Shown here one piece after another: positions 8,988-31,666 of a DNA stretch of 32,000 bases. The notes under the pieces were generated by a model. It saw only the letters and a program-made list of their open reading frames with translations. It was not told the origin of the DNA and ran no database searches. A program made the translations under genes and the position numbers. Every line of letters begins with the position of its first letter. Position 1 is the first letter of the stretch. This DNA is from Phycisphaera mikurensis NBRC 102666 (GTDB taxonomy: Bacteria; Planctomycetota; Phycisphaerae; Phycisphaerales; Phycisphaeraceae). The stretch covers positions 1,920,001 through 1,952,000 of the forward strand of contig NC_017080.1 in assembly GCF_000284115.1 (NCBI RefSeq), written 5' to 3'.

Positions 8988-9911
8988 TCAGGCGAAAAGA
9001 CCCGCTTCCGCCAGCCGCAGCAGCACCGCGACCAGCGGCCCGGCGAGCAGGACCGAGTCCCCCACGTCCATGACGCCGCCGAAGCCGGGGATCGTCCGCG
9101 CGAAGTCCTTCACGCCGGCGGCCCGCTTCAGGGCCGAGGCGAACAGGTCGCCGACCTGGCCGGCGAGACCCAGGACGGCCCCGCAGGCGAAGACCACCCA
9201 GAGGGCGACCTCCGGGAGCGTCGAATCTGCGCCTCCGGCGTCCGTTGCCCACCAAAGCGCCGCGGCGATGAGGCCCGCGAGCGTCATACCGCCGGCGAGG
9301 CCCTCGCGGGTCTTGCCCGGGCTGAGCCAGAGGATCAGCTTGTGGCGGCCGAGGTAGCGGCCGGTGAAGTACGCCCCGACGTCGCAGCTCTTCACGACCA
9401 GCATCGCCAGGACCATGAAGGGCGCAGGCGAGAGCGCCCGGACCCACAGCCACGAACCGGTCAGCAGCCCGATGAAGAGGAAGCCGACGGCGAAGCCGGC
9501 GACCAGCGCGAGGGCTCGCTCGGCGGAGCGGCTGCGGGAGCAGCCGAGGAGCACCGCCCAGCCCATGCCGACGGAGACGAGGCCCAGCGTGACGAGCAGC
9601 GCGTCGGCGTGGCCGTCGCCGGCGGCGGCGTCGCCGGCGTGCCCCGCGGCGAGCGCGGCGGCCCCCACGAGCGCGACGAGCAGGCCCGCGGCGGCGCCGC
9701 CGCCGAGCGTCGCGGCGCCCACGGTCCGCCCGACGGCGGCGAAGAGCACCGCGATCTCGCGAGACGCCCCGTAGGCGAACGGAGCGAAGACGCCCAGCAC
9801 GAGCACGCCTCCGGGCAGCCAGCCGGCCGCGGCGGCCCGCGCGTCCAGCCAGAGCATCAGCAGCAGCCAGGCCACCATGACCACGGAGGAGGGGAGGCGG
9901 TGGCGGAGCAT
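8988..9911 (-). CDS. cdsA: Phosphatidate cytidylyltransferase (CdsA) family membrane protein, with an atypical signature
   Basis: The 307 aa polytopic protein contains KSCDVGAYFTGRYLGRHKL, SPGKTREG and GDLFASALKRAAGVKD...IPGFGGVMDVGDS. This aligns to the CDS signature ending IPGHGGxLDRxDS, but with His to Phe and Arg to Val. Confidence 0.75.
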   Translation of the reverse strand: MLRHRLPSSVVMVAWLLLMLWLDARAAAAGWLPGGVLVLGVFAPFAYGASREIAVLFAAVGRTVGAATLGGGAAAGLLVALVGAAALAAGHAGDAAAGDGHADALLVTLGLVSVGMGWAVLLGCSRSRSAERALALVAGFAVGFLFIGLLTGSWLWVRALSPAPFMVLAMLVVKSCDVGAYFTGRYLGRHKLILWLSPGKTREGLAGGMTLAGLIAAALWWATDAGGADSTLPEVALWVVFACGAVLGLAGQVGDLFASALKRAAGVKDFARTIPGFGGVMDVGDSVLLAGPLVAVLLRLAEAGLFA

Positions 9912-10006
9912 GGCGGGAGCCTAAAGGGCGGCGGGGAAGCTGCCGGCGACCGCCGAAGCCCCGGAAGGGCGGTGGGGCGCGGAGAGGCCCGTAGTCTCCG
10001 CGCCCG

Positions 10007-11914
10007 ATGCCGGCCGCTCCCTCCCGCCCCTCCCCGCTGCCCGCTCCCGCGCCCGGCGTGCGGCGTCGGCGGGCCGTCGGCGGCCTGGTCCGACGCATCC
10101 CGCTGCTCCTTCTCGCCGCCTGGCTGCCGCTCGCCGTCGTGGCCGCCGAAGCGGCCGACGCCCTCGGGGGAGCCGGCGGCGTGTACGGCGGCGAGGCCCG
10201 CGTCTGGCGCGTCGGCCCGGGGGCCAAGGCCCAGACGATCCGGATCGACACCGGGCCGCTCCCCGGCGCGGGCGAAGCGGCGACGCTGCGCCGCGCGACC
10301 GCCCTGCGTGGCCGCGTCGCGGCCGCGGCGTCGGGCCCGGGCGGTCGCTCGCTCTGGCTGGTTCTCGGCGGCGGGGCGGTCCGCGAGCTCACGGCGGCCC
10401 CGCCCGCCGCCTCCGGTCGCTTCGCGCCGCGGATCGACCTGCGGCCCGCCGCCGACCTCCCCGCGGGCGAGCGGGCGGTCGCGCTGCTCGCGGTGGAGGA
10501 CGGGCTGTGGGTCCTGACGCGGCCGGCCGACGCGGCGGCGACGGCCGGCGGGGCCGCGGCCGAGCCGGAAGCGGCGGCCGTTGCTTCAGGACCGGCCTCG
10601 GAGGCCGCCCCCGCCGGAGACGCCGCCGAGCCCGCCACCCGCTCTCGCGCTATGGAGCTCCGCCTGCTCGGCGTCGGCGGGGCGTCGCCTCCCGCGCCAC
10701 CCGAGAGCCCTCGGCCGGCGACGGCCGGGCCCGCAGAGCCCGCGCCGCCCGCCTCGCTGCTCTTCCTGGGCCGCCAAGGCTGGGAGCGGCACGCCGCTCC
10801 GGGCGGCGCCGGAGCGGAGGGCACCGACGCCTTCCTGCTGCCGGCCGGAGACGCCGCCGATCCCGGCAGGCCCGCGGTGCTGCTGCGCGACGCCGCGGGC
10901 GGGCTGACGCTGCACGACCCCGCCGCGGGCGGAGGCGGCGACGCCGGGGCCTGGGCGAGGCGCAGCCTCGGCACGAGCCCGCCGCTGATCGCCGCGCCGC
11001 TGCCGCTGGACGGCGGGGCGGTGCTGCTGTTCGGCGGCGAGGCGGACGCGGGAGCCTCCGCGGAGATCCTCCGCCCGGCCGCGCCCAAACCGCGCCTCCC
11101 GCTTGCCGACGCGGAGCCCGCACTCGCCGCGGAGGGCCCGCTCGCGGGGGCCTTCGCCGGCAACGGCCGCTGGTGGCTGGCGCGGGAGGCCGATCCGCCT
11201 CCCGCCGGCGCCGCCGCGCCCGCGTGGCTGCGCTGGGCCGCCGAGGCGCCGGCCGAGGAGGGGCTCTCGCTCGTGCCCGTCTCCGCGGAGGGCACCCCGG
11301 GCACGCCGCGGGCGGTGGGCGTCAGCCGCAACCCCGCCGGCGGCATCGCGGCCGACTTCCCGCTGCTGCTGCTCGTGCTGATGGTCGCGACGATGGCGAC
11401 CTTCCTCTTCTGGCGGCGGGACCCCAGGAAGCAGGAGCTGCGGCTCGGTCCCGATCAGCGGCTTGCCACGACGCCGACGCGGCTCGCCGCCGCCGCGATT
11501 GACCTCCTTCCGGGCCTGCTGCTGGCGTGGCTGGCCTTCGGTTCCACGGCCGAGTCGCTCTTCGCCCACTGGCCCGGCCTCGGGCGGCCCAGCACGCCGC
11601 TGCAGACGCTCCCGCCGCTGCTCGTCGTGGGCGTCACCACGCTGCACACCGGCCTCGCCGAGGCGGTGACCGGGCGGTCGCTCGGGAAGCTGCTGCTGCG
11701 GCTGCGGGTGGCCGATCTCGCCGGCGGCCGCGTGGGCTTCGGCCGGGCCCTGCTGCGCATGGCCATGAAGCCCGTCGACCTGCTCGCCGTGCTGCTGCTG
11801 GTGCTCCCGCTGATCAATCCGCACCGCCAGCGCTTGTGCGATTTGGTCGCGGGCACGGTGGTGCTGGGGCCGGCGGGCTCCGACGCGGACCGGGGCGCGT
11901 CGCCGGGGCCGTGA
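10007..11914 (+). CDS. RDD-domain membrane protein with a large Ala/Gly/Pro-rich N-terminal exported region
   Basis: The 635 aa ORF has an N-terminal signal/anchor (IPLLLLAAWLPLAVVAAEAA). The C-terminal 190 aa match the RDD family layout (RLAAAAIDLLPGLLLAWLAF ... GRSLGKLLLRLRV ... RQRLCDLVAGTVVL). Third-position GC is high throughout. Confidence 0.65.
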   Translation: MPAAPSRPSPLPAPAPGVRRRRAVGGLVRRIPLLLLAAWLPLAVVAAEAADALGGAGGVYGGEARVWRVGPGAKAQTIRIDTGPLPGAGEAATLRRATALRGRVAAAASGPGGRSLWLVLGGGAVRELTAAPPAASGRFAPRIDLRPAADLPAGERAVALLAVEDGLWVLTRPADAAATAGGAAAEPEAAAVASGPASEAAPAGDAAEPATRSRAMELRLLGVGGASPPAPPESPRPATAGPAEPAPPASLLFLGRQGWERHAAPGGAGAEGTDAFLLPAGDAADPGRPAVLLRDAAGGLTLHDPAAGGGGDAGAWARRSLGTSPPLIAAPLPLDGGAVLLFGGEADAGASAEILRPAAPKPRLPLADAEPALAAEGPLAGAFAGNGRWWLAREADPPPAGAAAPAWLRWAAEAPAEEGLSLVPVSAEGTPGTPRAVGVSRNPAGGIAADFPLLLLVLMVATMATFLFWRRDPRKQELRLGPDQRLATTPTRLAAAAIDLLPGLLLAWLAFGSTAESLFAHWPGLGRPSTPLQTLPPLLVVGVTTLHTGLAEAVTGRSLGKLLLRLRVADLAGGRVGFGRALLRMAMKPVDLLAVLLLVLPLINPHRQRLCDLVAGTVVLGPAGSDADRGASPGP

Positions 11915-12034
11915 CGCTGCGTTGGCTCCGGCGACGGCCCGGCCCCGGTGGCGCGGCCGGCGGGCTCGCGATCCGGCCGTCATCGGGGCTGCCGCCGCGA
12001 GGGCGAGCCCCGGACGCTGGGTCGGGCGTCGGCG

Positions 12035-23332: not shown

Positions 23333-24289
23333 TCACTCGGGCGCTTCGAGCGTGCGCAGCGAGAGGCCCGCGGCGACCAGCTTCTCCTTGATCTCATCGA
23401 GCGTGGTGGCGCCGAAGTTCTTCACGCCCATCAGCTCCGCTTCGGTCATCATGACCAGGTCGCCGAGGCTGTCGACGCTGAGCAAGGCGAGGGCCTTGCG
23501 GGCCCGCACCGAGAGGTCCAGCTCGCCGACGCTCCGCTCCATCAGGTTGCCCTCGCCGGACTCGGCCTCGACCTCGGAAAGCCGCTCCTCGCGGGCCTTC
23601 TCCTGCGCCCGCTCGAGGTCCTGGCCCAGCCGCAGCCCCTTCTGGGCGAGCATCGACTTGATCTCGTCGATGCTGGCCTCGCCGAAGTTCTTGTAGCTGC
23701 GCAGCTCGGCCTCGGACACGCGGAGGAGGTCGCCGAGGGTCTTGATGTCCATCTTGCGCAGGCTGTTGCGCGTTCGGTAGTCCATCTCGAAGTCCGTCAC
23801 CGGCACGTCGAGCAGGGCGGCGTGGCGATCGTCCCGCTTCTCCTGGTCGTCGTCGATGACCATCTCGCGCGAGGCGAGGATGTCCTTAATGAACAGCCGG
23901 GCCCGGGCGTGGTTGGGGTCGGTCGCCAGCACCTGGCGGACGCAGCGCTCGGCCTGGGGCAGCTTGCCGCGGTCCTCGTAGAGCACGGCGAGGTTGATGA
24001 GCGCGTGCAGCGGCGCTTGCGGGGTGCGGACGCACTCCTCGTAGAGGTGGATCGCCTCGTCCTCCTCGCCGAGCAGGTCGAGGTTGTAGGCCAGGCGGAA
24101 GCTGATGTTCGCGTCGTCGGGGTCGGCCGCGTAGGCGGCTTCGTACTTCTCGACGGCGCCGACGCGGTCGCCCGCGTCCTCGAGCTTCTGGCCCTCGCCG
24201 AAGGCCTTGCCCGCGGCGGCGCTGTCGCGGAAGTCGCCCTCGGCGGCGGTCTCGTCGGTGGAAGGGGTCGTTGCTTCGGATTCGGCCAT
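23333..24289 (-). CDS. TPR-repeat protein with two RNA polymerase alpha-subunit C-terminal-domain-like (helix-hairpin-helix) modules
   Basis: The ATG at 24289-24287 gives MAESEATTPS. The N-terminal half is TPR-like (AVEKYEAAYAADPDDANISFRLAYN, LAVLYEDRGKLPQAERCVRQVLATDPNH). Two repeats follow that match the alpha-CTD pattern (RTRNSLRKMDIKTLGDLLRVSEAELRSYKNFGEASIDEIKSML and VRARKALALLSVDSLGDLVMMTEAELMGVKNFGATTLDEIKEKL). Confidence 0.75.
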   Translation of the reverse strand: MAESEATTPSTDETAAEGDFRDSAAAGKAFGEGQKLEDAGDRVGAVEKYEAAYAADPDDANISFRLAYNLDLLGEEDEAIHLYEECVRTPQAPLHALINLAVLYEDRGKLPQAERCVRQVLATDPNHARARLFIKDILASREMVIDDDQEKRDDRHAALLDVPVTDFEMDYRTRNSLRKMDIKTLGDLLRVSEAELRSYKNFGEASIDEIKSMLAQKGLRLGQDLERAQEKAREERLSEVEAESGEGNLMERSVGELDLSVRARKALALLSVDSLGDLVMMTEAELMGVKNFGATTLDEIKEKLVAAGLSLRTLEAPE

Positions 24290-24292
24290 GGC

Positions 24293-24349
24293 GGGGCTCC
24301 GGGGCGGGGCGGGTAAGCGGGGCGGGGGGCGGGCCCGCCGGGGGGCGGG
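24293..24349 (+). other. Dense strand-asymmetric G-tract cluster (G-quadruplex-capable) in a divergent promoter region
   Basis: At least nine runs of 3 or more G within 57 nt on the + strand, read directly: GGGGCTCCGGGGCGGGGCGGGTAAGCGGGGCGGGGGGCGGGCCCGCCGGGGGGCGGG. It begins 4 nt from the start codon of the minus-strand alpha-CTD/TPR gene. Confidence 0.7.
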
Positions 24350-24533
24350 ATCGCCGGGAAGCACCGGGAACGGGGAGGACGCGGCGCCGCGAGGCGCACG
24401 AGCGGACCCCGCCCGCCGGGCGCAGGGCGAGGAGGCTAGGCCGGTTGCCGCCGACCCGCAAGGCGAGGTAGGCTGCTTCACCCGAGGCGGAGCGGCCCCC
24501 CGCGTCTCCTCCGCCCGGACCCCCAGACCCGTT

Positions 24534-26429
24534 TTGACCCAAGCCGCGATCCAGGCCGACCTCCCGGGTGCCCTGCCCGCCCGCGGCTTCGATGAGGCCG
24601 AGCGGCTCGTGCGCTTCGGCGGCCCGCCGGACGCGTTCCTCGCCGAGCTCCTGCTGGCGCAGTGCCGCTTCGCCGGCGCGGCGGGCGGGGCGGTGCTGCG
24701 CCGAGCCGAGGGCGGCCCGGGCGTGGAGTGTCTGCAGAGCGTGCCGCCGGGTGCGGCGGGTCGGGATCCGGAGGAGGAGGCGGCGCCGCCTTGGCTGCGG
24801 GAGGTGGCGGGGGTGGTCGGTGGCGCCGGCGGCTGGCCGCGGGAGGCGGCGAGCTTCCCGCTGGAGTCCGGCGACGGGCTCTACGGCGAGGATGGGCAAC
24901 GCCACGCGGTGGTGCTGCCCCTGGGCGCCTTCGCCAGCCTCGACGCCGTGGCGGCCTTCGTGCTGGAGGGCTGCGACGCCGACGAGGCGCACCACGCCTG
25001 CCGCCGGCTGGCCTTCACGCTCTCGATGCTCACGCTCTACGAGGCGCGGCAGGCGCTGGGGGCGCGCGAGGCGGACCTCCGCGGCCTGGCGCTCGCGACG
25101 GGCACGCTGGCGGCGCTGAACCGGCAGGGCCGCTTCGGCAGCGCGGGCCTGGCCTTCTGCAACGAGGTCGCGAGCCGCTTCGAAGCCGAGCGCGTCAGCT
25201 TCGGCGTGGTTCGCGGCCGGTACGTGAAGCTGCGTGCGATGAGCCAGACCGAGCACGTGCACCGCAAGATGGCGGCGGTGCAGGCGATCGAGGCGGCGAT
25301 GGAGGAGTGCCTCGACCAGGACACGGAGGTGCAGCACCCCGCGGCGCCCGAGGAGCCGGTGGTGGCGCGGGCCGCGGCGGAGCTGGCGCGGCGCGAGAGC
25401 TGCGACGCCGTGATCTCGCTGCCGCTGCGGCGAGCCGGAGAGGCGGAGGCGGTGGTGACGCTGGAGCGGGCCAGCCGCGGGCTCGACGCGGCCGAGGCGT
25501 CCTTCCTTCGGCTCGCTTGCGAGCTGTGCGGCCCACGCTTGCTGGAGATGGAGGCCGCGGACCGCTGGGTGGGGGCGCGGGCCGCGGCCTCGGTCCGCCG
25601 CGGCCTCGCCCTGTTCGTGGGCCCAACGCACACCTGGGCGAAGGCGGCGGCCATCGGGCTGCTGGCGGCCCTTGCCGTGGTGACGCTGGTGGACGTGCCC
25701 TTCCGGGTGGATGCGCCCTTCGAGCTGCAGGCGGTGACGCGGCGGCAGGTGCCCGCGCCCTTCGAGGGCTACCTCGCCACGGTCGCGGTCCGCGCCGGCG
25801 ACGTGGTGCAGGCCGGCGACGTGCTCGGCGAGCTGGACACCTCGGAGCTTCAGCTGGAGCGTGCCCGGCAGCAGGCCGAGCGGCTCACGCACCAGAAGGA
25901 GGCCGACGAGGCGCGGCGGGAGGGCAAGACCGTGGACGTGCAGATCGCCGAGGCCCGCGCGGCCGAGGCGCAGGTTCAGGTGGAGCTGAACGACCACCAG
26001 ATCGCTCAGGCGACGCTGCGGGCTCCGGTGGCGGGGAGCGTCATCTCCGATGACCTCCAGCAGAAGCTCTTCAGCCCGGTGAAGCGCGGCGAGCTGCTGT
26101 TCGAGGTCGCCCGGCTGGGGCAGCAGCGGGCGGAGATGCGGGTGAGCGACGAGGACATCCCCTGGGTCCGCGAGGGCCAGACCGGCAGCCTCGCCCCGGC
26201 ATCGACGCCGGGCGATCCGGTCGGCTTCCGGGTGGGCCGCATCGAGCCCATCGCCGAGGTCGTTGACGGCGAGAACGTCTTCCGCGTGCGGCTGGAGCTG
26301 CTGGAGAGCCGCCCGTGGTTCCGCCCCGGTGTCGCCGGCGTCGCCAAGATCGACGTCGGCAAAGGCAGCATCCTCTGGGTCTACACGCGCGAGGCGGTCA
26401 ACTTCGTGAGGTTGAAGCTGTGGCTGTGA
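24534..26429 (+). CDS. HlyD-family periplasmic adaptor with an N-terminal cytoplasmic region of about 330 aa (tandem GAF-like domains)
   Basis: The C-terminal 300 aa have an adaptor layout. It runs TM (AAAIGLLAALAVVTLV), lipoyl-like hairpin (GYLATVAVRAGDVVQAGDVLGELD), coiled coil, LRAPVAGSVI, then a beta-barrel. The N-terminal GAF assignment is pattern-based. TTG 24534 is proposed as the start: third-position GC is high after it and poor before it (gta, cga, gga, aga, gtt). The ATG at 24207 would overlap the divergent gene. Confidence 0.7.
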   Translation: MTQAAIQADLPGALPARGFDEAERLVRFGGPPDAFLAELLLAQCRFAGAAGGAVLRRAEGGPGVECLQSVPPGAAGRDPEEEAAPPWLREVAGVVGGAGGWPREAASFPLESGDGLYGEDGQRHAVVLPLGAFASLDAVAAFVLEGCDADEAHHACRRLAFTLSMLTLYEARQALGAREADLRGLALATGTLAALNRQGRFGSAGLAFCNEVASRFEAERVSFGVVRGRYVKLRAMSQTEHVHRKMAAVQAIEAAMEECLDQDTEVQHPAAPEEPVVARAAAELARRESCDAVISLPLRRAGEAEAVVTLERASRGLDAAEASFLRLACELCGPRLLEMEAADRWVGARAAASVRRGLALFVGPTHTWAKAAAIGLLAALAVVTLVDVPFRVDAPFELQAVTRRQVPAPFEGYLATVAVRAGDVVQAGDVLGELDTSELQLERARQQAERLTHQKEADEARREGKTVDVQIAEARAAEAQVQVELNDHQIAQATLRAPVAGSVISDDLQQKLFSPVKRGELLFEVARLGQQRAEMRVSDEDIPWVREGQTGSLAPASTPGDPVGFRVGRIEPIAEVVDGENVFRVRLELLESRPWFRPGVAGVAKIDVGKGSILWVYTREAVNFVRLKLWL

Positions 26430-26430
26430 G

Positions 26431-26562
26431 AGCGGAGATGAAGCGGGTGAAGAAGTGAAGAAGTGAGGAAGCGAAGAAGTGAGCAGCAGCAGTGGATCCA
26501 GGAACCGGCCGGCGGAGCCGCCGCGTCGTGCCTGACTTCTTCTCTTCTTCGCTTCTCCGCTT
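26431..26562 (+). repeat. Intergenic inverted array of octamer repeats
   Basis: Tandem octamers GTGAAGAA, GTGAAGAA, GTGAGGAA, GCGAAGAA, GTGAGCAG occupy 26447-26486. Complementary units TTCTTCTC, TTCTTCGC, TTCTCCGC occupy 26537-26560. The segment 26449-26468 is complementary at 18 of 20 positions to 26531-50, and AGCGGAGA (26431-38) pairs with TCTCCGCT (26554-61). A 12-nt direct repeat CCGGCGGAGCCG occurs at 26509-20 and again at 26565-76, abutting the ATG at 26577. Confidence 0.85.
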
Positions 26563-26576
26563 GACCGGCGGAGCCG

Positions 26577-28766
26577 ATGCAAAGACCCACCTTCCACGAG
26601 TCCTGGTACCGGATCTCCGCCCTCCGGCCGCGGCTGCGCGCGGTGGTCCAGGTGTTCCGGCAGCGCTTCCGCGGCAAGACCTGGCACGTGCTGCGGGACC
26701 CCGCGAACAACCAGTTCTTCCGGCTCGACGACGCGGGCTTCCGCTTCGTCGGGCTCCTCGACGGGAAGCGAACCGTGGGCGAGGCGTGGGAGGCCACCGC
26801 GGCGCAGCTGGGCGACCGGGCCCCGACGCAGGGGGAAGCGGTGCAGGTGCTCGGCCAGCTGTACCAGAGCAACCTGATCGCGGCGGAGCTGCCGGCCGAC
26901 GCCGAGGGCATGTTCGACCGCTTCAAGCGGCGCCGGCACAAGCAGGTGGGCGGCTACCTGATGAACATCATGTTCGCGAAGATTCCGCTCTTCGACCCCG
27001 AGCACCTGCTCGAGCGGTGGAAGCCGGCCTTCATGTGGATCTTCGGCCCCGTGGGCGTCGCGCTCTGGCTCGCGCTGATCGCCGCCGGGTTGCTCTCGCT
27101 GGGAGGCCGCGCCGAGGAGCTGCTCGGGCAAGCCGGCAACATCCTGGATCCCTCCAACTGGATCTTGCTCTACGCCGCATTCGGCCTGGCGAAGGTGCTC
27201 CACGAGTTCGGCCACGCCTTCGCGGTCAAAGCCTTCGGCCGCTCGGAGCAGGTCGAGGCCGAGGTGCACGTGCTCGGGGTGATGCTGCTGGTGCTCGTGC
27301 CGGTGCCGTACGTGGACGCGACGGGTTCCTGGGCGTTCCGCTCGAAGTGGCGGCGGGCGTTCGTGGGCGCGGCCGGCATGTACGTCGAGCTGGCGCTCGC
27401 CGCGGTGGCGGCGATCGTCTGGTCGCAGACGTCGCCCGGCGTGGTGCACGCGCTGGCGTACAACGTGATCTTCATCGCCGGCGTCTCGACGATCCTCTTC
27501 AACGCGAACCCGCTGATCCGCTTCGACGGGTACTACATCCTCTCGGACCTCACCGAGACGCCCAACCTCTACCAGCGCAGCAACGACTACCTCAAGTACC
27601 TCGTGCGCCGCTTCGCCTACCGCGTGCGGGAGCCGCACAACCCGGCCCAGAGCCCGGCCGAGCGGCCGTGGCTCGCGGCCTACGGCGTGTGCTCGCTGGT
27701 CTACCGGGTGCTGCTCTTCGGCGGGATCCTGCTGTTCGTGATCGGCAAGATGTTCTTCGTGGGGGCGTTGATGGCGGCGGTCTCCATCGTCGCCTGGCTG
27801 TTCGTGCCGCTGGGCAAGTGGGTGCGTTACCTGCTGACCTCGCCGGAGCTGGCGCGGACGCGTGGGCTGGCGCAGGGGGTCTCGCTGGCGGCGGTGGCGC
27901 TCGTGGCCCTGGGGGTGGGCGTGGTGCCGGCCCCCGACCGGCAGCGGGCGGCAGGCCTGGTGGAGCCGGACCGCTTCGAGGCGGTTTTCTCCCGCAGCGA
28001 CGGCTTCATCGACGCGGTGCTGCCGACGCTGTCGCCCGCGGACCAGGGCGTGCTGGTGGCGGCGGGCAACCGCGAGCTGCTCGCCCGGCGCGACCGGCTG
28101 GAGGCGCGGCTGGGCCTGCTCGCGGCGCAGCAACGCAAGGCCGAGCGGGAGGACGTCGCGTCGGCGCAGGTGGTGCGGCGGCAGCACGAGGCGACGGCGG
28201 GGCAGCTCGCCCGCGTGCGGTCGGAGATCCAGATGCTCTCGCTGTCTGCCCGCGTAGGCGAGGCCGGGCAGCCGGCGTGGTGGGTGGGTCCGGACGTCGA
28301 CCGCTTCAAGGGGGCGTTCGTCCCCCGGGGGGAGGCGCTGGGGGTGGTCGCTTCTCTGGAGGACCTGGTGATCCGCGTGGCCGCCGACCAGCACCTCGGC
28401 CCGCGGCTGCGGGGCGAGGAGTGGATCGGCCGGGCGGTGGAGGTGAAGACCGCCGGCCGGCCGGACCTCACCTACGCGGGCCGGGTGGAGCGCGTGGGGC
28501 CGGCCGGCACCGAGCAGCTTCCCTCGGCGGCGCTGGGCTTCGCCGCCGGCGGACCCATCGCCACCGACGCCCGCCGCACCGACGGGACCACGGCGGCGGA
28601 GGCCGTCTTCGAGGTGCGGGTGCGGGTGCTGCCGACGGCGTCCGACCAGCCGCCGCTGCGGGCGGGCCAGCGGGTGATGGTGCGCTTCCGCTTTGCCGAC
28701 CGCCCGCTGATGACCCAGGCGGTGCTGGCGCTGCAGCAGCTGTTCCAGGGCCGGGTGGGCGCGTGA
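26577..28766 (+). CDS. Polytopic site-2-protease (peptidase M50)-like zinc metalloprotease fused to a C-terminal HlyD-like adaptor region, with an N-terminal PqqD/RRE-like domain
   Basis: The 729 aa ORF has HEFGH at 27201-27215 and NANPLIRFDG (NxxPxxxxDG) at 27501-27530, the two S2P zinc-site motifs, both inside hydrophobic segments. The N-terminus (FFRLDDAGFRFVGLLDGKRTVGEAWEATAAQLG...AVQVLGQLYQSNLI) resembles PqqD-like peptide-binding winged helices. The C-terminal 290 aa have a coiled coil plus beta-rich HlyD-like layout. Confidence 0.8.
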   Translation: MQRPTFHESWYRISALRPRLRAVVQVFRQRFRGKTWHVLRDPANNQFFRLDDAGFRFVGLLDGKRTVGEAWEATAAQLGDRAPTQGEAVQVLGQLYQSNLIAAELPADAEGMFDRFKRRRHKQVGGYLMNIMFAKIPLFDPEHLLERWKPAFMWIFGPVGVALWLALIAAGLLSLGGRAEELLGQAGNILDPSNWILLYAAFGLAKVLHEFGHAFAVKAFGRSEQVEAEVHVLGVMLLVLVPVPYVDATGSWAFRSKWRRAFVGAAGMYVELALAAVAAIVWSQTSPGVVHALAYNVIFIAGVSTILFNANPLIRFDGYYILSDLTETPNLYQRSNDYLKYLVRRFAYRVREPHNPAQSPAERPWLAAYGVCSLVYRVLLFGGILLFVIGKMFFVGALMAAVSIVAWLFVPLGKWVRYLLTSPELARTRGLAQGVSLAAVALVALGVGVVPAPDRQRAAGLVEPDRFEAVFSRSDGFIDAVLPTLSPADQGVLVAAGNRELLARRDRLEARLGLLAAQQRKAEREDVASAQVVRRQHEATAGQLARVRSEIQMLSLSARVGEAGQPAWWVGPDVDRFKGAFVPRGEALGVVASLEDLVIRVAADQHLGPRLRGEEWIGRAVEVKTAGRPDLTYAGRVERVGPAGTEQLPSAALGFAAGGPIATDARRTDGTTAAEAVFEVRVRVLPTASDQPPLRAGQRVMVRFRFADRPLMTQAVLALQQLFQGRVGA

Positions 28767-30820
28767 GCAGCGGTGTGGTCGCCCCGACGCCGCGGACCGT
28801 GGCCGCCGGAGAGCTCCTCGGCTCGCGGTCCGCGGGATCCGGCGCGGCCGACGCGGCCACCCGCCTGCCCAGCGGGCGGTGGCGGCGGCTGGCGGCGCCG
28901 TCGGGGCCTCCCACGCCGCTGCGCGGCCTCGACGCGGCTTGGGACGCCGTCGTCGCCTGCGCGGTGCCCTGGGTGCCGCGGCGTCGCCGCTGCCTGCGCC
29001 GCGCGGAGCGGGTGCTGGCTTTGGCGGCGGGGCTGGAGGCCCTGCCCACCGCGGAACTCGCCGAGCAGACCCGGGCGGTCGCCGAGCGCTTCCGCCTCGG
29101 CCGCGACACCGCGGCCGACCTCGACCTCGCGTTCGCGGTCGTCCGCGAGCAAGCCACCCGCGTGCTCGGCTTGCGGGCCTACCCGGTGCAGGTCGCCGCG
29201 GCGATCGCGATGGAGCGCGGCGCCATCGCCGAGGTGGCGACCGGCGAGGGCAAGACGCTGATCGCCACGATGCCCGCGGTGCTCGCGGGCTGGCGTGGCC
29301 GCGGCTGCCACGTGCTCACCGCCAACGACTACCTGGCGGCGCGGGACGCCGAGAAGATGCGGCCGGTGTACGAGGCGTGCGGTCTCACGGTCGCCTCCGT
29401 CGTCGACGCCACGCCGCAGGAGGCCCGGACCGCCGCGTACGCCGCCGGCGTCACCTACACGACCAACAAGGAGGCGGCCGCGGACTTCCTCCGCGACCGG
29501 ATCGTCGCCGGCCGCGACGCCTGCCTCGCGGACGGATTGTTGCGCGAGCTGGTGCGGGGCGCGGGGCTGGGCTCGGGCCGCGGCGTCGCGGGCGTGCAGC
29601 GTGGGCTCGAGCACGCGATCGTCGACGAGGCGGACGCGGTCCTGATCGACGAGGGCACCACCCCACTGATCATCTCCGGAGAAGCCCCCAGCCCCGGACG
29701 GGAGCAGGCCCACCGCGAGGCGGTCGGCCACGCCGACGCCTTCTCCCGCGGCAGGGACTACCGCGTCGACGAACGCTTCCGCGAGGTGGTGATGACGCCC
29801 GCGGGCCGGGCCCGCGTCGCCCGCCTCGCGGGCACCTCGTCGGGCATCTGGAGCGGGCGTCGCCGCGCCGAGGAGCTCCTGAACCAGGCCATCACCGCCC
29901 GCGAGCTCTACCTCGCCGGCCGCGACTACGTGGTGCAGGACGGCAGAGTCGTCATCGTCGACGCCTTCAACGGCCGGTTGATGCCCGATCGCAGCTGGTC
30001 CGACGGGCTGCACCAGGCGGTGGAGGCCAAGGAGCGGCTGGCGCTCTCACCCCCGCGGGAGACGCTCGCGCGCATCTCCTTCCAGCGCTTCTTCCGCCAC
30101 TACCGCCACCTCTCGGGCATGACCGGGACCGCCCGCGAGGAGCGACGCGAGCTTTGGAAAACCTACCGGTGCCCGGTGGTCGCGCTGCCGACGCACCGGC
30201 GGCCGCAGCGGCGCGATCAGGGCATCCGCATCACCCGCAGCCGCGACTCGCGGATCGCCGAGGTCGTGCGCGACACGCAGGAGAAGCGGTCGGTCGGCCG
30301 GCCCGTGCTCATCGGCACGCGGTCGGTGGCCGAGAGCGAGCGGCTCAGCGAAGGCCTCGAAGCGGCCGGCATCCCGCACCGCGTGCTCAACGCCGTACGC
30401 CACGGCGAGGAGGCCGCGGTGGTCGCGGGGGCCGGCGAGGTCGGGCGCGTCACGCTGGCGACCAACATGGCCGGCCGCGGCACCGACATCGCCCTCGGCG
30501 AGGGCGTCGCGGAGCTCGGCGGCCTGCACGTGATCGTCTGCGGGATGAATGACGCCCGCCGCGTCGACCGCCAGCTCTTCGGGCGGGCGGCCCGCCAGGG
30601 CGAGCCGGGCTCGGCCGTGATGGTCTGCTCGCTGCAGGACGGTCTGCCGGTGCAGCACGCCCCGCGCGTGGTGCGGGCCACGCTGGGGCGGCTCTTCCCC
30701 CGGGGGGTCTTGCGGCTGGCGCAGCGGCGGGCGCAGAACCGGGCCCGTTCGCAGCGTGCCGGCGTGCTGAAGCGCGACCGCTGGCTCGCGGAGAGCCTCG
30801 GCTTCGCCGGCATCGAGTGA
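28763..30820 (+). CDS. SecA-like DEAD-motor ATPase, truncated after NBD2 (no helical wing or C-terminal linker, and little or no helical scaffold)
   Basis: GTG 28763 overlaps the stop of the M50/HlyD gene (GTGA), and third-position GC is high from that codon. SecA motifs are present: FAVVREQATRVLGLRAYPVQV, ATGEGKTL (Walker A, 29240-), LTANDYLAARDAE, IVDEADAVLIDEGTTPLIISG (DEAD at 29624-29635), a PPXD-like segment (DYVVQDGRVVIVDAFNGRLMPDRSWSDGLHQAVEAKE), TNMAGRGTDI and RVDRQLFGRAARQGEPGS. Only about 68 residues follow the last motif. The start is uncertain by tens of codons. Confidence 0.8.
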   Translation: MSSGVVAPTPRTVAAGELLGSRSAGSGAADAATRLPSGRWRRLAAPSGPPTPLRGLDAAWDAVVACAVPWVPRRRRCLRRAERVLALAAGLEALPTAELAEQTRAVAERFRLGRDTAADLDLAFAVVREQATRVLGLRAYPVQVAAAIAMERGAIAEVATGEGKTLIATMPAVLAGWRGRGCHVLTANDYLAARDAEKMRPVYEACGLTVASVVDATPQEARTAAYAAGVTYTTNKEAAADFLRDRIVAGRDACLADGLLRELVRGAGLGSGRGVAGVQRGLEHAIVDEADAVLIDEGTTPLIISGEAPSPGREQAHREAVGHADAFSRGRDYRVDERFREVVMTPAGRARVARLAGTSSGIWSGRRRAEELLNQAITARELYLAGRDYVVQDGRVVIVDAFNGRLMPDRSWSDGLHQAVEAKERLALSPPRETLARISFQRFFRHYRHLSGMTGTAREERRELWKTYRCPVVALPTHRRPQRRDQGIRITRSRDSRIAEVVRDTQEKRSVGRPVLIGTRSVAESERLSEGLEAAGIPHRVLNAVRHGEEAAVVAGAGEVGRVTLATNMAGRGTDIALGEGVAELGGLHVIVCGMNDARRVDRQLFGRAARQGEPGSAVMVCSLQDGLPVQHAPRVVRATLGRLFPRGVLRLAQRRAQNRARSQRAGVLKRDRWLAESLGFAGIE

Positions 30821-30851
30821 AGCGGGAGGTGCTGAGGTCGCCGGGTCGCGT

Positions 30852-30902
30852 TATCGGCCCGCCGCCGCCGTCTGGCCCGGCGGAGGCACCCGCTGGCCGA
30901 TA
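30852..30902 (+). promoter_or_regulatory. Stem-loop between the SecA-like gene and fliS (possible terminator or 5'-UTR structure)
   Basis: TATCGGCC (30852-30859) is perfectly complementary to GGCCGATA (30895-30902). A nested CCGCCG/CGGCGG pairing lies inside. The structure ends 10 nt before the fliS ATG. Confidence 0.35.
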
Positions 30903-30911
30903 GATCCCGGC

Positions 30912-31382
30912 ATGACGCCCGCACGACCCGCCCAGGCTCCGAACCCTTACCTCCGCACGAAGGTGATGACCGCGAGCCCCGAGGAGCTGCGTCTCATGCT
31001 GCTCCAGGGCGCCGAACGCTTCGCCAAGGCGGGGCGGAAGGAGCTCGCCGCCGAGACGCCGGACCTCGAGAAGAGCCACGAGTCCCTGATGAAGGCTCAG
31101 CGGATCGTCGTCGAGCTCTCCACGAGCATGAATCCGCGCCTCGCGCCGGAGGTGGTGGAGCGGCTGACCGCGCTGTACACCTACATCTACAAGCTGCTCG
31201 TCGACGCCAACCTCACCCGCGAGCTCGGCCCGCTGGACGAGGCGATCCACCGCATCGCCTACGAGCGGGAGACCTGGGTGCTGCTGATGGAGCAGAACCG
31301 AGCGGAGGCCGGCGGCGACGCAAGCGGCGGCGCGGCGACCACCCGGCAGGCCGCGCTGACGGCGTATCCGCCGGCCGCGTGA
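30912..31382 (+). CDS. fliS: FliS-family flagellar export chaperone-like protein
   Basis: The 156 aa ORF follows the FliS four-helix pattern. Matching segments are NPYLRTKVMTASPEELRLMLLQGAERFAKAG (Y..xxVxTASPxxLxxMLxxGA), RIVVEL, LTALYTYIYKLLVDANL and DEAIHRIAYERETW. No flagellin, fliD or other flagellar genes are in the window. Confidence 0.7.
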   Translation: MTPARPAQAPNPYLRTKVMTASPEELRLMLLQGAERFAKAGRKELAAETPDLEKSHESLMKAQRIVVELSTSMNPRLAPEVVERLTALYTYIYKLLVDANLTRELGPLDEAIHRIAYERETWVLLMEQNRAEAGGDASGGAATTRQAALTAYPPAA

Positions 31383-31666
31383 GCGAGCCCTCGCGGGGGT
31401 TGCGGGGGCGTCGCCGTGCACCGGTCGAGGTTCGGGTGTGCGGCGCCCGGGTGCCACGCCGCTTGCGGGGCGGGGTGCCCGCAGGACACGCGGCAGACCC
31501 GTGCCTCCGCCGGCGTCGCCTCCGGCGACCGCCACCCCGGCAGCGGCGTGCCGCCGACGGTGCCGAGCGTCCGGGTTCTCGCAAGAGAGGGGCGAGGAGA
31601 GGGGCAGGGCCCCCACTTGCTTGCAGCGGGCTCGCTTCGCCGATGCCCAAGCCGCACGCGGATCCG

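What the first reader, a model, noticed from the sequence alone, without database searches (positions are those of the whole stretch)
28763..30820. SecA paralogue with an intact ATPase motor but no SecY-engaging C-terminal half
Walker A (TGEGKT), DEAD, TNMAGRGTDI and GRxxRQGxPGS motifs and a PPXD-like preprotein cross-linking segment are all present, so the motor and substrate clamp look functional. The protein stops about 68 residues after the last NBD2 motif. Canonical SecA has roughly 300 further residues: the helical scaffold with the two-helix finger, the helical wing, and the C-terminal linker/zinc site. Those missing parts are what insert into SecY and bind SecB. This protein therefore probably does not drive SecYEG and may dock on the co-encoded membrane proteins instead. 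It also has about 65 extra N-terminal residues before the first SecA-homologous helix. These have genuine coding-type codon usage.
Basis: partly seen in the sequence, partly recalled or inferred. Interest (0 to 1): 0.72.

Follow-up and report, generated by a model that had tools for sequence, protein, structure and literature searches.

The report
Truncated SecA motor of M50/HlyD exporter
This is a real, conserved short copy of the protein-export motor SecA that has lost the parts that plug into the normal export channel. It sits in an operon with a membrane protease and periplasmic adaptor proteins. This gene family, including this very locus, was already described by comparative genomics in 2015, and its function has still not been tested experimentally.

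Summary
Window 28763-30820 (+) in Phycisphaera mikurensis NBRC 102666 encodes a 685-aa SecA-like protein. It has intact ATPase motifs and a PPXD. It ends 68 residues after motif VI. No SecA C-domain is encoded anywhere in the window.

The truncation is native. More than 150 clusters at 50% identity are all 620-700 aa. Family members end in a conserved L-[GAS]-F-[ASG]-G-x-x-E tail that follows a remnant of the scaffold helix of about 34 residues.

The gene is coupled by a 4-bp overlap to an upstream gene for a protein with three parts: a PqqD/RRE-like domain, an M50-type protease core with HEFGH and NPxxxFDG intact, and a membrane-fusion-protein (MFP) domain. That gene follows a GAF-like/MFP gene. 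The same gene order holds in 60 of 67 related loci across at least seven phyla.

[quoted passage not shown] Their S2 Table lists PSMK_16490 and PSMK_16500, so the finding is already known.

Three points appear to be new. The M50 protein carries an RRE-like domain. DUF3467 is a frequent accessory gene. Giant proteins with an N-terminal LEPR-XLL domain are often encoded next to the operon, which makes them candidate cargo. None of these accessory or cargo genes lies in this window. I could not check directly whether the same genome has a canonical secA.

The parts
24534..26429 (+). First operon gene (PSMK_16490). It encodes 631 aa: an N-terminal cytoplasmic GAF-like region, one transmembrane helix, and a periplasmic HlyD/MFP domain.
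   Evidence: Gene call from the second P. mikurensis assembly. Pfam matches HlyD_3 (1.3e-13), HlyD_D23 and Biotin_lipoyl_2. GAF is only weak here (E 0.09) but significant at the same position in orthologues. Listed in S2 Table of PMC4452313.
26577..28766 (+). Second operon gene (PSMK_16500). It encodes 729 aa: an N-terminal PqqD/RRE-like domain (residues about 18-101), a polytopic M50/site-2-protease-like core with HEFGH (27201-27215) and NPLIRFDG (27507-27530), and a C-terminal MFP domain of about 280 aa.
   Evidence: Pfam PqqD scores 24.1 bits against a cut-off of 23.4. Peptidase_M50 is weak. NCBIfam daptide_HExxH gives 3e-43, below its cut-off. H209, E210, H213, N311, P312 and D317 are invariant in 54 homologues. 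The AlphaFold model has pLDDT 83.7. Foldseek matches the C-terminal part to MacA, MexA and AcrA.
28763..30820 (+). SecA-like ATPase, 685 aa, lacking the SecA C-domain. This is the finding itself.
   Evidence: It is 100% identical to P. mikurensis protein P0001.
28763..28978 (+). N-terminal extension (residues 1-72). Residues 1-36 are variable and disordered. The conserved motifs are W40-R41-x-L43 and G55-L-D57-A-A-W60.
   Evidence: Alignments A1 and A2. pLDDT values. GC3 of 0.93. The distance from the M50 stop codon to Walker A is 127-130 codons in most loci, against 104 residues in E. coli.
29237..29257 (+). Walker A motif, ATGEGKT (residues 159-165).
   Evidence: Invariant in the family.
29510..29593 (+). 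Family-specific insertion of about 27 residues in NBD1 (residues 250-277). It is absent from E. coli and B. subtilis SecA.
   Evidence: It appears as gaps in the pairwise and multiple alignments. The model has a helix at 255-265 with low pLDDT.
29624..29635 (+). DEAD motif (Walker B), residues 288-291.
   Evidence: D288 and E289 are invariant.
29717..30025 (+). Preprotein cross-linking domain (PPXD), residues 319-421.
   Evidence: Pfam SecA_PP_bind, 2.6e-25, covering profile positions 8-110 of 110.
30206..30682 (+). NBD2 (residues 482 to about 640), with TNMAGRGTDI at 30461-30490 and GRAARQGEPGS at 30581-30613.
   Evidence: Pfam P-loop_SecA. Motif positions. R572, R608, R611 and Q612 are invariant.
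30698..30799 (+). Remnant of the long helix of the helical scaffold domain (residues 646-679).
   Evidence: AlphaFold helix H646-679. It aligns with E. coli [21 protein letters not shown].
30797..30817 (+). Conserved C-terminal motif LGFAGIE. The family consensus is L-[GAS]-F-[ASG]-G-x-x-E.
   Evidence: C-terminal tails of 59 complete orthologues from several phyla. L679, G680, F681, G683 and E685 are at least 90% conserved in A2.

Best explanation
The gene encodes the cytoplasmic ATPase of a three-gene envelope-spanning export and processing module. It is not a SecYEG-driving SecA.

**Shown**
- It is a natural SecA of the "N68" type: NBD1, PPXD and NBD2 plus a stub of the scaffold helix.
- All catalytic motifs are under conservation.
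- It ends in a conserved tail.
- It is translationally coupled to, and co-inherited with, two partners. One is a polytopic M50-type metalloprotease that carries a cytoplasmic PqqD/RRE-like peptide-binding domain and its own periplasmic MFP domain. The other is a GAF-like/MFP protein.

**Inferred**
- The motor docks on these membrane partners, perhaps through its conserved N-terminal extension or its C-terminal tail.
- It uses the PPXD/NBD2 clamp to thread an unfolded polypeptide, N-terminus first, into the M50/MFP assembly.
- The MFP domains and a TolC-family channel complete a type-I-like conduit. In this conduit the SecA-like motor and the M50 protein together replace the ABC transporter.

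**Further inferred from related loci, not from this window**
- The cargo is large to giant surface proteins that carry an N-terminal LEPR-XLL domain.
- The RRE-like domain would recognise this domain as a leader, and the M50 site may remove it.

In P. mikurensis only the three core genes are clustered. The cargo, the small MFP, the outer-membrane channel and DUF3467 would have to be encoded elsewhere in the genome.
For: - **Motor integrity and fold:**
- **Native truncation:**
  - All of the top 150 clusters at 50% identity are 460-761 aa, apart from one giant fusion protein.
  - In 56 of 57 orthologues scored, the protein ends 67-86 residues after motif VI, and the terminal motif is shared.
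  - No SecA C-domain is found in any frame of the window or of the related loci.
- **Coupling and synteny:**
  - The GTGA start/stop overlap.
  - The order GAF/MFP, then M50, then SecA-like holds in 60 of 67 loci with enough flanking DNA. These loci span Planctomycetota, Verrucomicrobiota, Desulfobacterota, Nitrospirota, Alpha-, Beta- and Gammaproteobacteria, Methylomirabilota and Myxococcota.
- **Partner anatomy:**
- **Accessory genes in related loci:**
  - small MFP in 54 of 83 loci;
  - TolC-type OEP in 13 loci;
  - DUF3467 in 23 loci.
- **Published precedent:** the same hypothesis for this very locus is in PMC4452313.
- **Cargo lead:**
  - In 5 of 5 annotated plasmid loci, a gene of 24-39 kb lies directly upstream on the same strand.
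  - Four of those five carry NF012209 LEPR-XLL near the N-terminus.
  - Among the GTDB loci, 10 of 13 adjacent ORFs of at least 1000 aa whose N-terminus is visible have the motif. All five that I scanned pass the NCBIfam cut-off.
Against: - No experiment exists for any member of the family. In Methylobacterium extorquens AM1 the M50, SecA-like and MFP genes were barely expressed in exponential phase.
- M50/site-2-protease proteins are not known to form protein-conducting channels, so the inner-membrane path is unexplained.
- The M50 and daptide-protease models score below their curated cut-offs.
- The P. mikurensis window contains no LEPR-XLL gene, no small MFP, no outer-membrane channel and no DUF3467.
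- LEPR-XLL proteins may be numerous in planctomycete and verrucomicrobial genomes, which I did not test. If so, some adjacency there could be chance.
- One plasmid giant gene lacks the motif at its annotated start.
- Six loci have the M50 gene without an adjacent SecA-like gene.
- Losing the two-helix finger does not by itself prove that the protein cannot bind SecY, because the PPXD also contacts SecY in known complexes (my own knowledge).
Confidence: 0.55

Rival explanations
1. It is a SecA2-like accessory ATPase that still works through the housekeeping SecYEG channel for a special set of substrates. The M50 and MFP proteins would act downstream, in processing or in passage across the outer membrane.
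For: - Mycobacterial SecA2 also lacks the wing domain yet uses SecYEG (my own knowledge). It is the PDB chain whose alignment runs furthest into the tail, to residue 612 of 4uaq.
- The published tree places this clade next to actinobacterial SecA2.
- The PPXD and the clamp are intact.
Against: - The two-helix finger and the whole IRA1 region are missing. SecA2 keeps them.
- Scores against all four SecA2 models are far below their cut-offs.
- No secY2 or asp genes are nearby.
- The tight operon linkage is to M50 and MFP genes, not to Sec genes.
Confidence: 0.12
2. It is an unfoldase that feeds a cytoplasmic or membrane substrate into the M50 protease for regulated intramembrane proteolysis. That is a signalling or quality-control function, under the control of the GAF domain, rather than secretion.
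For: - The site-2-protease-type active site is intact.
- A GAF sensor domain sits on the partner protein.
- The GAF gene is expressed separately in M. extorquens.
- ATP-dependent unfoldases paired with proteases are common (my own knowledge).
Against: - Two or three MFP-fold periplasmic domains and recurrent TolC-family genes have no role in a pure proteolysis pathway.
- Adjacent giant surface-type proteins point to export.
Confidence: 0.18
3. It is part of a maturation and export system for small ribosomally made peptides (RiPP-like). The PqqD/RRE domain would bind a leader peptide, the M50 protease would cleave it as YydH or the daptide protease does, and the SecA-like motor would power export.
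For: - PqqD domain match, and PGAP names orthologues as PqqD family.
- The best NCBIfam matches of the M50 protein are daptide_HExxH and YydH/LiaK epipeptide proteases.
Against: - No precursor-peptide genes or modifying-enzyme genes recur in 83 neighbourhoods.
- The only recurrent small gene, DUF3467, has a conserved folded core rather than a conserved leader followed by a variable core.
- Scores are below the family cut-offs.
Confidence: 0.1
4. It is a truncated pseudogene or an assembly frameshift of an ordinary secA.
For: Only the short length.
Against: - An identical protein occurs in two independent assemblies.
- Thousands of homologues have the same length.
- The C-terminal motif is conserved right up to the stop codon.
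- No C-domain is encoded in any frame.
- The catalytic residues are invariant.
Confidence: 0.01

Closest known systems
Secondary SecA_DEAD domain proteins (Kamneva, Poudel & Ward, PLoS One 2015, PMC4452313)
   Same: It is the same family and the same locus. The proteins have SecA_DEAD and PP_bind domains and lack SecA_SW. [quoted passage not shown] PSMK_16490 and PSMK_16500 are listed in S2 Table. The proposed roles are also the same: the ATPase replaces the ABC transporter, and the M50 protein is the membrane component.
   Different: Nothing differs in kind. This analysis adds the following points.
- The PqqD/RRE-like domain.
- The intact HExxH and NPxxxxDG active site.
- The MFP fold of the M50 C-terminus.
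- The retained stub of the scaffold helix and the conserved terminal motif.
- Identification of the small conserved upstream protein as DUF3467. It is probably the paper's undiscussed cluster 5, judging from its position in S2 Table, but I did not compare sequences.
- The association with LEPR-XLL giant proteins.
- A much wider census: at least 558 loci in species-representative genomes.
E. coli SecA-N68 (engineered C-terminal truncation; PDB 5k9t)
   Same: The domain content is the same: NBD1, PPXD and NBD2 without the C-domain. The model matches 5k9t with E-value 5.1e-46.
   Different: N68 is a laboratory fragment with deregulated ATPase activity (my own knowledge). This protein is a natural, conserved gene product. 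It also has an N-terminal extension, a 27-residue insertion in NBD1, a scaffold-helix stub and a conserved tail.
Actinobacterial SecA2 (for example M. tuberculosis, PDB 4uaq)
   Same: It is a second, smaller SecA paralogue with a reduced C-domain. The published tree places it as the sister clade.
   Different: SecA2 keeps the scaffold and the two-helix finger and works with SecYEG (my own knowledge). This protein lacks both and is linked to M50 and MFP genes. Its score against TIGR04221 is 393, against a cut-off of 725.
Type I secretion systems and peptidase-containing ABC exporters (HlyBD-TolC, PCATs)
   Same: - MFP-fold adaptors and TolC-family channels.
- Operon linkage to giant adhesin-like proteins.
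- A leader-binding and leader-cleaving module attached to the inner-membrane component, as with the C39 peptidase domain of PCATs (my own knowledge).
   Different: - No ABC transporter is present.
- The energy source is a SecA-type SF2 motor.
- The protease is an intramembrane M50 metalloprotease, not a C39 cysteine protease.
- The candidate signal is N-terminal (LEPR-XLL), not the C-terminal signal of RTX substrates.
SecA_DEAD/PPXD modules inside giant Omnitrophota and actinobacterial proteins (bioRxiv 10.1101/2023.11.21.568195)
   Same: These are SecA motor plus PPXD modules without the scaffold/wing domain. They are proposed to act outside the canonical Sec pathway in exporting giant proteins.
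   Different: There the motor is fused into the giant protein itself. Here it is a separate protein of about 670 aa in an operon with M50 and MFP genes.

Membership tests
Canonical SecA (NCBIfam TIGR00963 / PRK12904 equivalogs) | DEAD-type motor: Walker A, DEAD, motif III, motif V with the arginine finger, and motif VI. | tested here: met
   All motifs are present and invariant in the family. Pfam SecA_DEAD gives 1.9e-89 and P-loop_SecA gives 1.6e-43.
Canonical SecA (NCBIfam TIGR00963 / PRK12904 equivalogs) | Preprotein cross-linking domain. | tested here: met
   PF01043, 2.6e-25, covering the full profile.
Canonical SecA (NCBIfam TIGR00963 / PRK12904 equivalogs) | Complete helical scaffold with the two-helix finger, the helical wing domain, and the C-terminal linker/zinc site (Pfam SecA_SW). 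| tested here: not met
   There is no SecA_SW match. Alignments stop at E. coli residue 594 and B. subtilis residue 558. Only a stub helix of about 34 residues is retained. No C-domain is found in any frame.
Canonical SecA (NCBIfam TIGR00963 / PRK12904 equivalogs) | Score at or above the curated equivalog cut-off. | tested here: not met
   514 against a cut-off of 800, and 533 against 814.
Accessory SecA2 (TIGR03714, TIGR04221, TIGR04397, NF012136) | Score at or above the curated cut-off. | tested here: not met
   440 against 930, 393 against 725, 486 against 1085, and 378 against 1100.
Secondary SecA_DEAD domain proteins (Kamneva et al. 2015) | SecA_DEAD present, and SecA_SW absent or reduced to a fragment. 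| tested here: met
   None of the 120 listed homologues has a SecA_SW domain.
Secondary SecA_DEAD domain proteins (Kamneva et al. 2015) | Encoded next to Peptidase_M50/HlyD and GAF/HlyD genes. | tested here: met
   In the window the genes lie at 24534-26429 and 26577-28766. The same order holds in 60 of 67 related loci. [quoted passage not shown] 2015) | Coexists with a full-length canonical SecA in the same genome. | not testable with these tools
   No tool gave access to the rest of the P. mikurensis genome. The indirect support is that the paper treats these proteins as additional to the canonical SecA of those genomes, and that family members lie on plasmids.
Type I secretion system | ABC transporter as the inner-membrane energiser. 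| tested here: not met
   No ABC transporter recurs in the 83 neighbourhoods. The ABC_tran gene in the window (locus L085 coordinates 4323-5336) belongs to an unrelated upstream gene group.
Type I secretion system | Periplasmic membrane fusion protein. | tested here: met
   HlyD_3 and HlyD_D23 domains in the first gene. The MFP fold of the M50 C-terminus matches MacA, MexA and AcrA.
Type I secretion system | TolC-family outer-membrane channel. | tested here: inconclusive
   None is present in the window. OEP genes occur in 13 of 83 related loci, and a TolC gene sits in the Methylosinus plasmid operon.
Peptidase M50 / site-2 protease | HExxH and NxxPxxxxDG zinc-site motifs within a polytopic membrane core. 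| tested here: met
   HEFGH at residues 209-213 and NPLIRFDG at 311-318, both invariant. The model shows transmembrane helices over residues 142-449.
Peptidase M50 / site-2 protease | Score at or above the Pfam or NCBIfam cut-off. | tested here: not met
   PF02163 scores 16.8 against 27.2. daptide_HExxH scores 148 against 300.
PqqD / RiPP recognition element | PF05402 match at or above the gathering score, and a winged-helix fold with three strands and three helices. | tested here: met
   24.1 bits against 23.4, over residues 37-101. The model has strands at 25-31, 34-41 and 46-50 and helices at 52-59, 67-81 and 85-97.

The most novel reading that the evidence does not exclude
The SecA-like motor, the RRE-M50-MFP protein and the GAF-MFP protein, together with a small MFP, TolC and DUF3467 where these are present, form a distinct and widespread secretion system. 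It exports very large surface proteins N-terminus first, using the N-terminal LEPR-XLL domain as a leader. The PqqD-like domain reads this leader and the intramembrane metalloprotease clips it off. In effect it would be a type-I-like conduit driven by a SecA-type motor instead of an ABC transporter. The cargo link and the RRE link are not in the 2015 paper, and I found nothing on them in the searchable literature.
Probability: 0.4. Interest if true: 0.85.

Novelty: already known. Interest (0 to 1): 0.45.

Why it matters
If the published hypothesis is right, Gram-negative bacteria from many phyla carry an export machine that reuses the SecA motor outside the Sec pathway. That would answer how a SecA lacking every known channel-docking element can work. 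It would also give the uncharacterised LEPR-XLL domain of giant proteins a function. The system occurs in culturable, genetically tractable hosts such as Methylobacterium extorquens, Ruegeria pomeroyi and Mesorhizobium, so the idea can be tested directly. As a scan result, however, it is a rediscovery: the truncated SecA and its M50/HlyD neighbours at this locus were reported in 2015.

Tried and rejected
1. **Frameshift or split gene.** tblastn with the E. coli SecA C-domain against all frames of the window and of 83 related loci found nothing. Rejected.
2. **The tail as a relic of the two-helix-finger tip.** MAFFT placed LGFAGIE opposite E. coli LRGYAQKD. This is a 7-residue placement, and the aromatic residues are out of register (F opposite G). 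I do not count it as evidence.
3. **DUF3467 as a SecB-like chaperone.** A profile search of PDB sequences gave only a chance kinase match at E-value 0.11. Left open.
4. **Direct search for the canonical secA of P. mikurensis.**
   - The one genome-contig scan went to the neighbourhood census.
   - The protein searches list only the best 120 hits, and truncated-family members filled that list.
   - The last protein search went to the LEPR-XLL neighbour, and no P. mikurensis orthologue appeared among the best 120 hits.
5. **Promoter and terminator scan of 24200-31500.** No promoter-like sites were found. Terminator-like sites were at the chance level.
6. **Accessory and cargo genes in the window.** I searched for a small MFP, DUF3467, an OEP or a LEPR-XLL gene. 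None was found.
7. **Literature.**
   - No paper combines SecA-like with HlyD, or PqqD with M50 and HlyD.
   - I found no experimental follow-up of the 2015 paper.
   - "LEPR-XLL" and "DUF3467" occur only in passing mentions.


Full report
**Origin and observation**

The window comes from Phycisphaera mikurensis NBRC 102666, a member of the Planctomycetota with about 75% G+C. The translated ORF is 100% identical to a protein of that genome.

The ORF at 28763-30820 (+) reads through without a stop codon for 685 codons. Its GTG start overlaps the TGA stop of the upstream gene, giving the sequence GTGA. Two other annotations begin at GTG 28775 (681 aa) and GTG 28799 (673 aa). A homologue with 74% identity begins MSAGV, which aligns with the VSSGV of the longest form.

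| Motif | Residues |
|---|---|
| ATGEGKT (Walker A) | 159-165 |
| DEAD | 288-291 |
| GMTGTA | 452-457 |
| TNMAGRGTDI | 567-576 |
| GRAARQGEPGS | 607-617 |

Pfam finds SecA_DEAD (1.9e-89), SecA_PP_bind (2.6e-25) and P-loop_SecA (1.6e-43). It finds no SecA_SW. The NCBIfam models for SecA and SecA2 match only up to about position 550 of some 790. All scores are far below the curated cut-offs.

**Where the protein ends**

BLASTP against E. coli SecA aligns query residues 73-628 with E. coli residues 13-594 of 901. phmmer against PDB sequences aligns the query with B. subtilis SecA up to residue 558, and with M. tuberculosis SecA2 up to residue 612.

The AlphaFold model has mean pLDDT 85.5 and pTM 0.82. 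After NBD2 it shows a single helix at residues 646-679, followed by a disordered tail. In a multiple alignment this helix lies on the first half of the long scaffold helix of E. coli, [21 protein letters not shown].

So the last 68 residues keep a stub of the scaffold. The rest of the scaffold, the two-helix finger, the wing domain and the C-terminal linker/zinc site are all absent. About 240-250 residues are missing. Foldseek returns SecA structures as the top 36 matches, including the engineered N68 fragment 5k9t.

**Not an artefact**

- tblastn with E. coli SecA residues 620-901 finds nothing in any frame of the 32-kb window (best E-value 5.4). It also finds nothing in 83 related loci.
- FliS starts 91 bp after the stop codon.
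- An exhaustive search of 1.84 billion representative proteins returns 150 top clusters at 50% identity. All but one are 460-761 aa, and most are 640-700 aa.
- In 56 of the 57 complete orthologues in which the motif VI pattern could be located, the protein ends 67-86 residues after motif VI.
- Nearly all complete orthologues finish with L-[GAS]-F-[ASG]-G-x-x-E.
- The catalytic residues K164, D288, E289, R572, R608, R611 and Q612 are invariant in 54 aligned homologues.

**Family-specific features**

- **N-terminal extension.** In P. mikurensis it is about 60 residues longer than E. coli SecA.
  - Residues 1-36 are variable and disordered.
  - Residues 37-72 carry conserved W40-R41-x-L43 and G55-L-D57-A-A-W60.
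  - GC3 in this frame is 0.93, against 0.95 for the rest of the gene.
  - Across phyla, the distance from the M50 stop codon to Walker A clusters at 127-130 codons, against 104 residues in E. coli. A shorter extension is therefore family-wide, and start/stop coupling is common.
- **Insertion in NBD1.** An insertion of about 27 residues (250-277) lies before the DEAD motif. It is absent from E. coli and B. subtilis SecA.

**Neighbouring genes**

*Upstream gene, 26577-28766 (729 aa).*
- It has a PqqD match above the gathering score (24.1 against 23.4) and a weak Peptidase_M50 match.
- Its best NCBIfam matches are the daptide and YydH/LiaK intramembrane metalloproteases, below their cut-offs.
- HEFGH (209-213) and NPLIRFDG (311-318) are invariant in 54 homologues.
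- Its AlphaFold model (pLDDT 83.7) shows four parts:
  - an N-terminal domain with three strands and three helices, typical of RiPP recognition elements;
  - a helical membrane core at residues 142-449;
  - a coiled-coil hairpin at 499-552;
  - beta-barrel domains.
- The C-terminal part of about 280 residues matches MacA, MexA, AcrA and other adaptors.

*First gene, 24534-26429 (631 aa).*
- It has HlyD and biotin-lipoyl-like domains.
- By orthology it also has a GAF domain. The match is weak here (E 0.09) but reaches 1e-5 to 1e-10 at the same position in orthologues from four phyla.

*Rest of the window.*
- A TPR protein with two RNA-polymerase alpha C-terminal domains is encoded divergently upstream.
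- FliS and a GGDEF/EAL regulator follow downstream.
- The remaining genes are for sugar hydrolases, haem A/O synthesis and other unrelated functions.

**Conservation of the module**

I scanned one genome per GTDB species with the M50-protein alignment. The best 80 span Planctomycetota, Verrucomicrobiota, Desulfobacterota, Nitrospirota, Alpha-, Beta- and Gammaproteobacteria, Methylomirabilota, Rokubacteria and Myxococcota.

The order GAF/MFP, then M50, then SecA-like holds in 60 of 67 loci that have at least 1.5 kb of DNA downstream of the M50 gene. Clustering of the neighbourhoods adds three recurrent accessory genes:

| Accessory gene | Loci (of 83) | Position |
|---|---|---|
| Small MFP | 54 | Upstream of the GAF gene or downstream of the SecA-like gene |
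| OEP/TolC-type gene | 13 | Usually upstream of the small MFP |
| DUF3467 protein (100-130 aa) | 23 | Usually directly upstream of the GAF gene |

None of these three is in the P. mikurensis window. Six loci with enough flanking DNA lack an adjacent SecA-like gene.

**Prior knowledge**

Kamneva, Poudel & Ward (PLoS One 2015, PMC4452313) described "secondary SecA_DEAD domain proteins". Their main points were as follows.
- The proteins lack SecA_SW entirely or keep only a small fragment of it.
- They form a clade separate from the canonical SecA of the same genomes, next to actinobacterial SecA2.
- They are encoded with Peptidase_M50/HlyD, GAF/HlyD and HlyD/biotin-lipoyl proteins, and sometimes OEP proteins.
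- The authors proposed that the SecA_DEAD protein supplies ATPase activity in place of an ABC transporter, and that the M50 protein provides the membrane component.

Their S2 Table lists P. mikurensis PSMK_16500 (M50, one gene away) and PSMK_16490 (HlyD, two genes away). The finding is therefore already known, at this very locus.

No experimental work exists in that paper, and I found no follow-up. The paper does not mention PqqD, DUF3467, LEPR-XLL or cargo. Its undiscussed cluster 5 is probably the DUF3467 protein, judging from its position, but I did not compare sequences.

**A lead on cargo**

This lead comes from related loci, not from the window. The family also occurs on alphaproteobacterial plasmids. 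In all five RefSeq-annotated plasmid loci I opened, a giant gene lies immediately upstream on the same strand.

| Plasmid host | Giant gene length | RefSeq product name | LEPR-XLL (NF012209) near N-terminus |
|---|---|---|---|
| Pontibrevibacter | 31.8 kb | LEPR-XLL domain-containing protein | yes |
| Mesorhizobium ciceri | 31.6 kb | Ig-like domain-containing protein | yes |
| Methylosinus sp. C49 | 26.5 kb | LamG-like jellyroll fold domain-containing protein | yes |
| Pseudosulfitobacter | 38.8 kb | LEPR-XLL domain-containing protein | yes |
| Alisedimentitalea | 24.4 kb | calcium-binding protein | no, at the annotated start |

- After the giant gene the full order is DUF3467, GAF/MFP, PqqD/M50/MFP, SecA-like, small MFP, with TolC last in Methylosinus. 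DUF3467 is present in three of the five loci and the small MFP in four.
- In Pontibrevibacter the giant gene, DUF3467, GAF/MFP, M50 and SecA-like genes overlap or nearly abut.
- The four LEPR-XLL matches lie at residues about 19-68 and score 29-34 bits against a cut-off of 17.
- The motif consensus is a hydrophobic residue followed by E-x-L-E-P-R-x-L-L-S-A-D, after a basic stretch.
- Among the GTDB loci, 10 of 13 adjacent ORFs of at least 1000 aa whose N-terminus is visible carry the motif. These come from Phycisphaerae, Nitrospira and Verrucomicrobiota. All five that I scanned pass the NCBIfam cut-off.
- Several more adjacent ORFs of over 2000 aa run off the fetched flank, so their N-termini are unseen.
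- In the closest Phycisphaerae relatives the neighbour is an AmiA-like/golvesin-C/fn3 protein of about 1150 aa. It lies on the same contigs as the operon.

Caveats apply. LEPR-XLL proteins may be numerous in planctomycete and verrucomicrobial genomes, which I did not test, so some adjacency there may be chance. I did not compute a genome-wide background.

**Mechanism, with levels of support**

*Shown.* The protein is a conserved, catalytically intact SecA motor with a clamp domain. It lacks the elements that canonical SecA inserts into SecY and uses to bind SecB. It is co-inherited and translationally coupled with an RRE-M50-MFP protein and a GAF-MFP protein.

*Inferred.*
- The motor docks on these partners.
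- It threads an unfolded polypeptide, N-terminus first, into a type-I-like conduit built from MFP domains and a TolC-family channel.
- The RRE-like domain recognises an N-terminal leader, and LEPR-XLL is the candidate.
- The M50 site may remove that leader.

*Unexplained.* Two questions remain open. What forms the inner-membrane pore? What do the conserved N-terminal motif and the C-terminal L-x-F-x-G tail bind?

The rival readings are listed with their evidence in the rivals section. They are a SecA2-like helper of SecYEG, an unfoldase for regulated intramembrane proteolysis, and small-peptide (RiPP-like) export.

**Verdict**

The finding is a rediscovery of a published but experimentally untouched system. 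The most useful new element is the testable link between this module, its RRE-like domain and LEPR-XLL giant proteins.

Noticed in passing
Related loci L086 2443-2724, L087 6362-6667, L088 7310-7630; 23 of 83 GTDB loci (e.g. L076 7670-8002): A small DUF3467 protein (100-130 aa; conserved YAN...EEVVL.FG...R.ILSP.AAKRL...YE.RFG) is encoded next to the operon in many phyla, in nearly all cases directly upstream of the GAF/MFP gene. It has no known function. A profile search found no match among solved structures. It is absent from the window.
   Followed up: partly
Related loci L086-L090 (plasmids); L001 1683-5813, L005 4479-7988, L028 14299-22152, L035 2729-7390, L043 7329-10781, L045 15304-21210, L050 7389-15287, L070 13545-20336: Large to giant proteins (1,100 to about 12,900 aa) with an N-terminal LEPR-XLL domain (NF012209) lie next to the operon, nearly always on the same strand. 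They are candidate cargo. Neither the 2015 paper nor the searchable literature discusses this.
   Followed up: partly
Protein P0387, 4930 aa, SecA-like motor at residues 2980-3538: This is a giant protein with an embedded SecA motor. It is the only long protein among the top 150 representatives. It recalls the SecA_DEAD modules reported inside giant Omnitrophota and actinobacterial proteins.
   Followed up: no
Homologue names: NCBI's pipeline names members of this truncated SecA family inconsistently: "prepilin peptidase", "DEAD/DEAH box helicase", "helicase-related protein", "hypothetical protein" or "preprotein translocase subunit SecA". No curated family model covers them.
   Followed up: no
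window 23333-24289 (-): A divergently transcribed gene encodes TPR repeats followed by two copies of the RNA polymerase alpha-subunit C-terminal domain. This is an unusual architecture, and the gene sits directly upstream of the operon.
   Followed up: no
window 9000-12000, especially 10007-11914 (+): This is the most G+C-rich stretch of the window (0.78-0.83). The ORF there has an RDD-family domain only at its C-terminus (residues 487-616), after a long region with no domain match.
   Followed up: no
window 30912-31382 (+): A lone FliS flagellar chaperone gene follows the SecA-like gene after a 91-bp gap. No other flagellar genes are in view. In other genomes the downstream neighbour differs, so the adjacency is not conserved.
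   Followed up: partly
L089 10884-11705: A SapC-family gene is inserted between the M50 and SecA-like genes on the Pseudosulfitobacter plasmid. SapC-family proteins are also a recurrent neighbour (cluster 4) in S2 Table of the 2015 paper for Proteobacteria. Their role is unknown.
   Followed up: no
L011, L016, L023, L032, L039, L066: These loci have the M50/MFP gene and enough downstream DNA, but no adjacent SecA-like gene. In L023 an ORF of 1257 aa follows the M50 gene instead. I did not determine whether the motor is encoded elsewhere in those genomes.
   Followed up: partly
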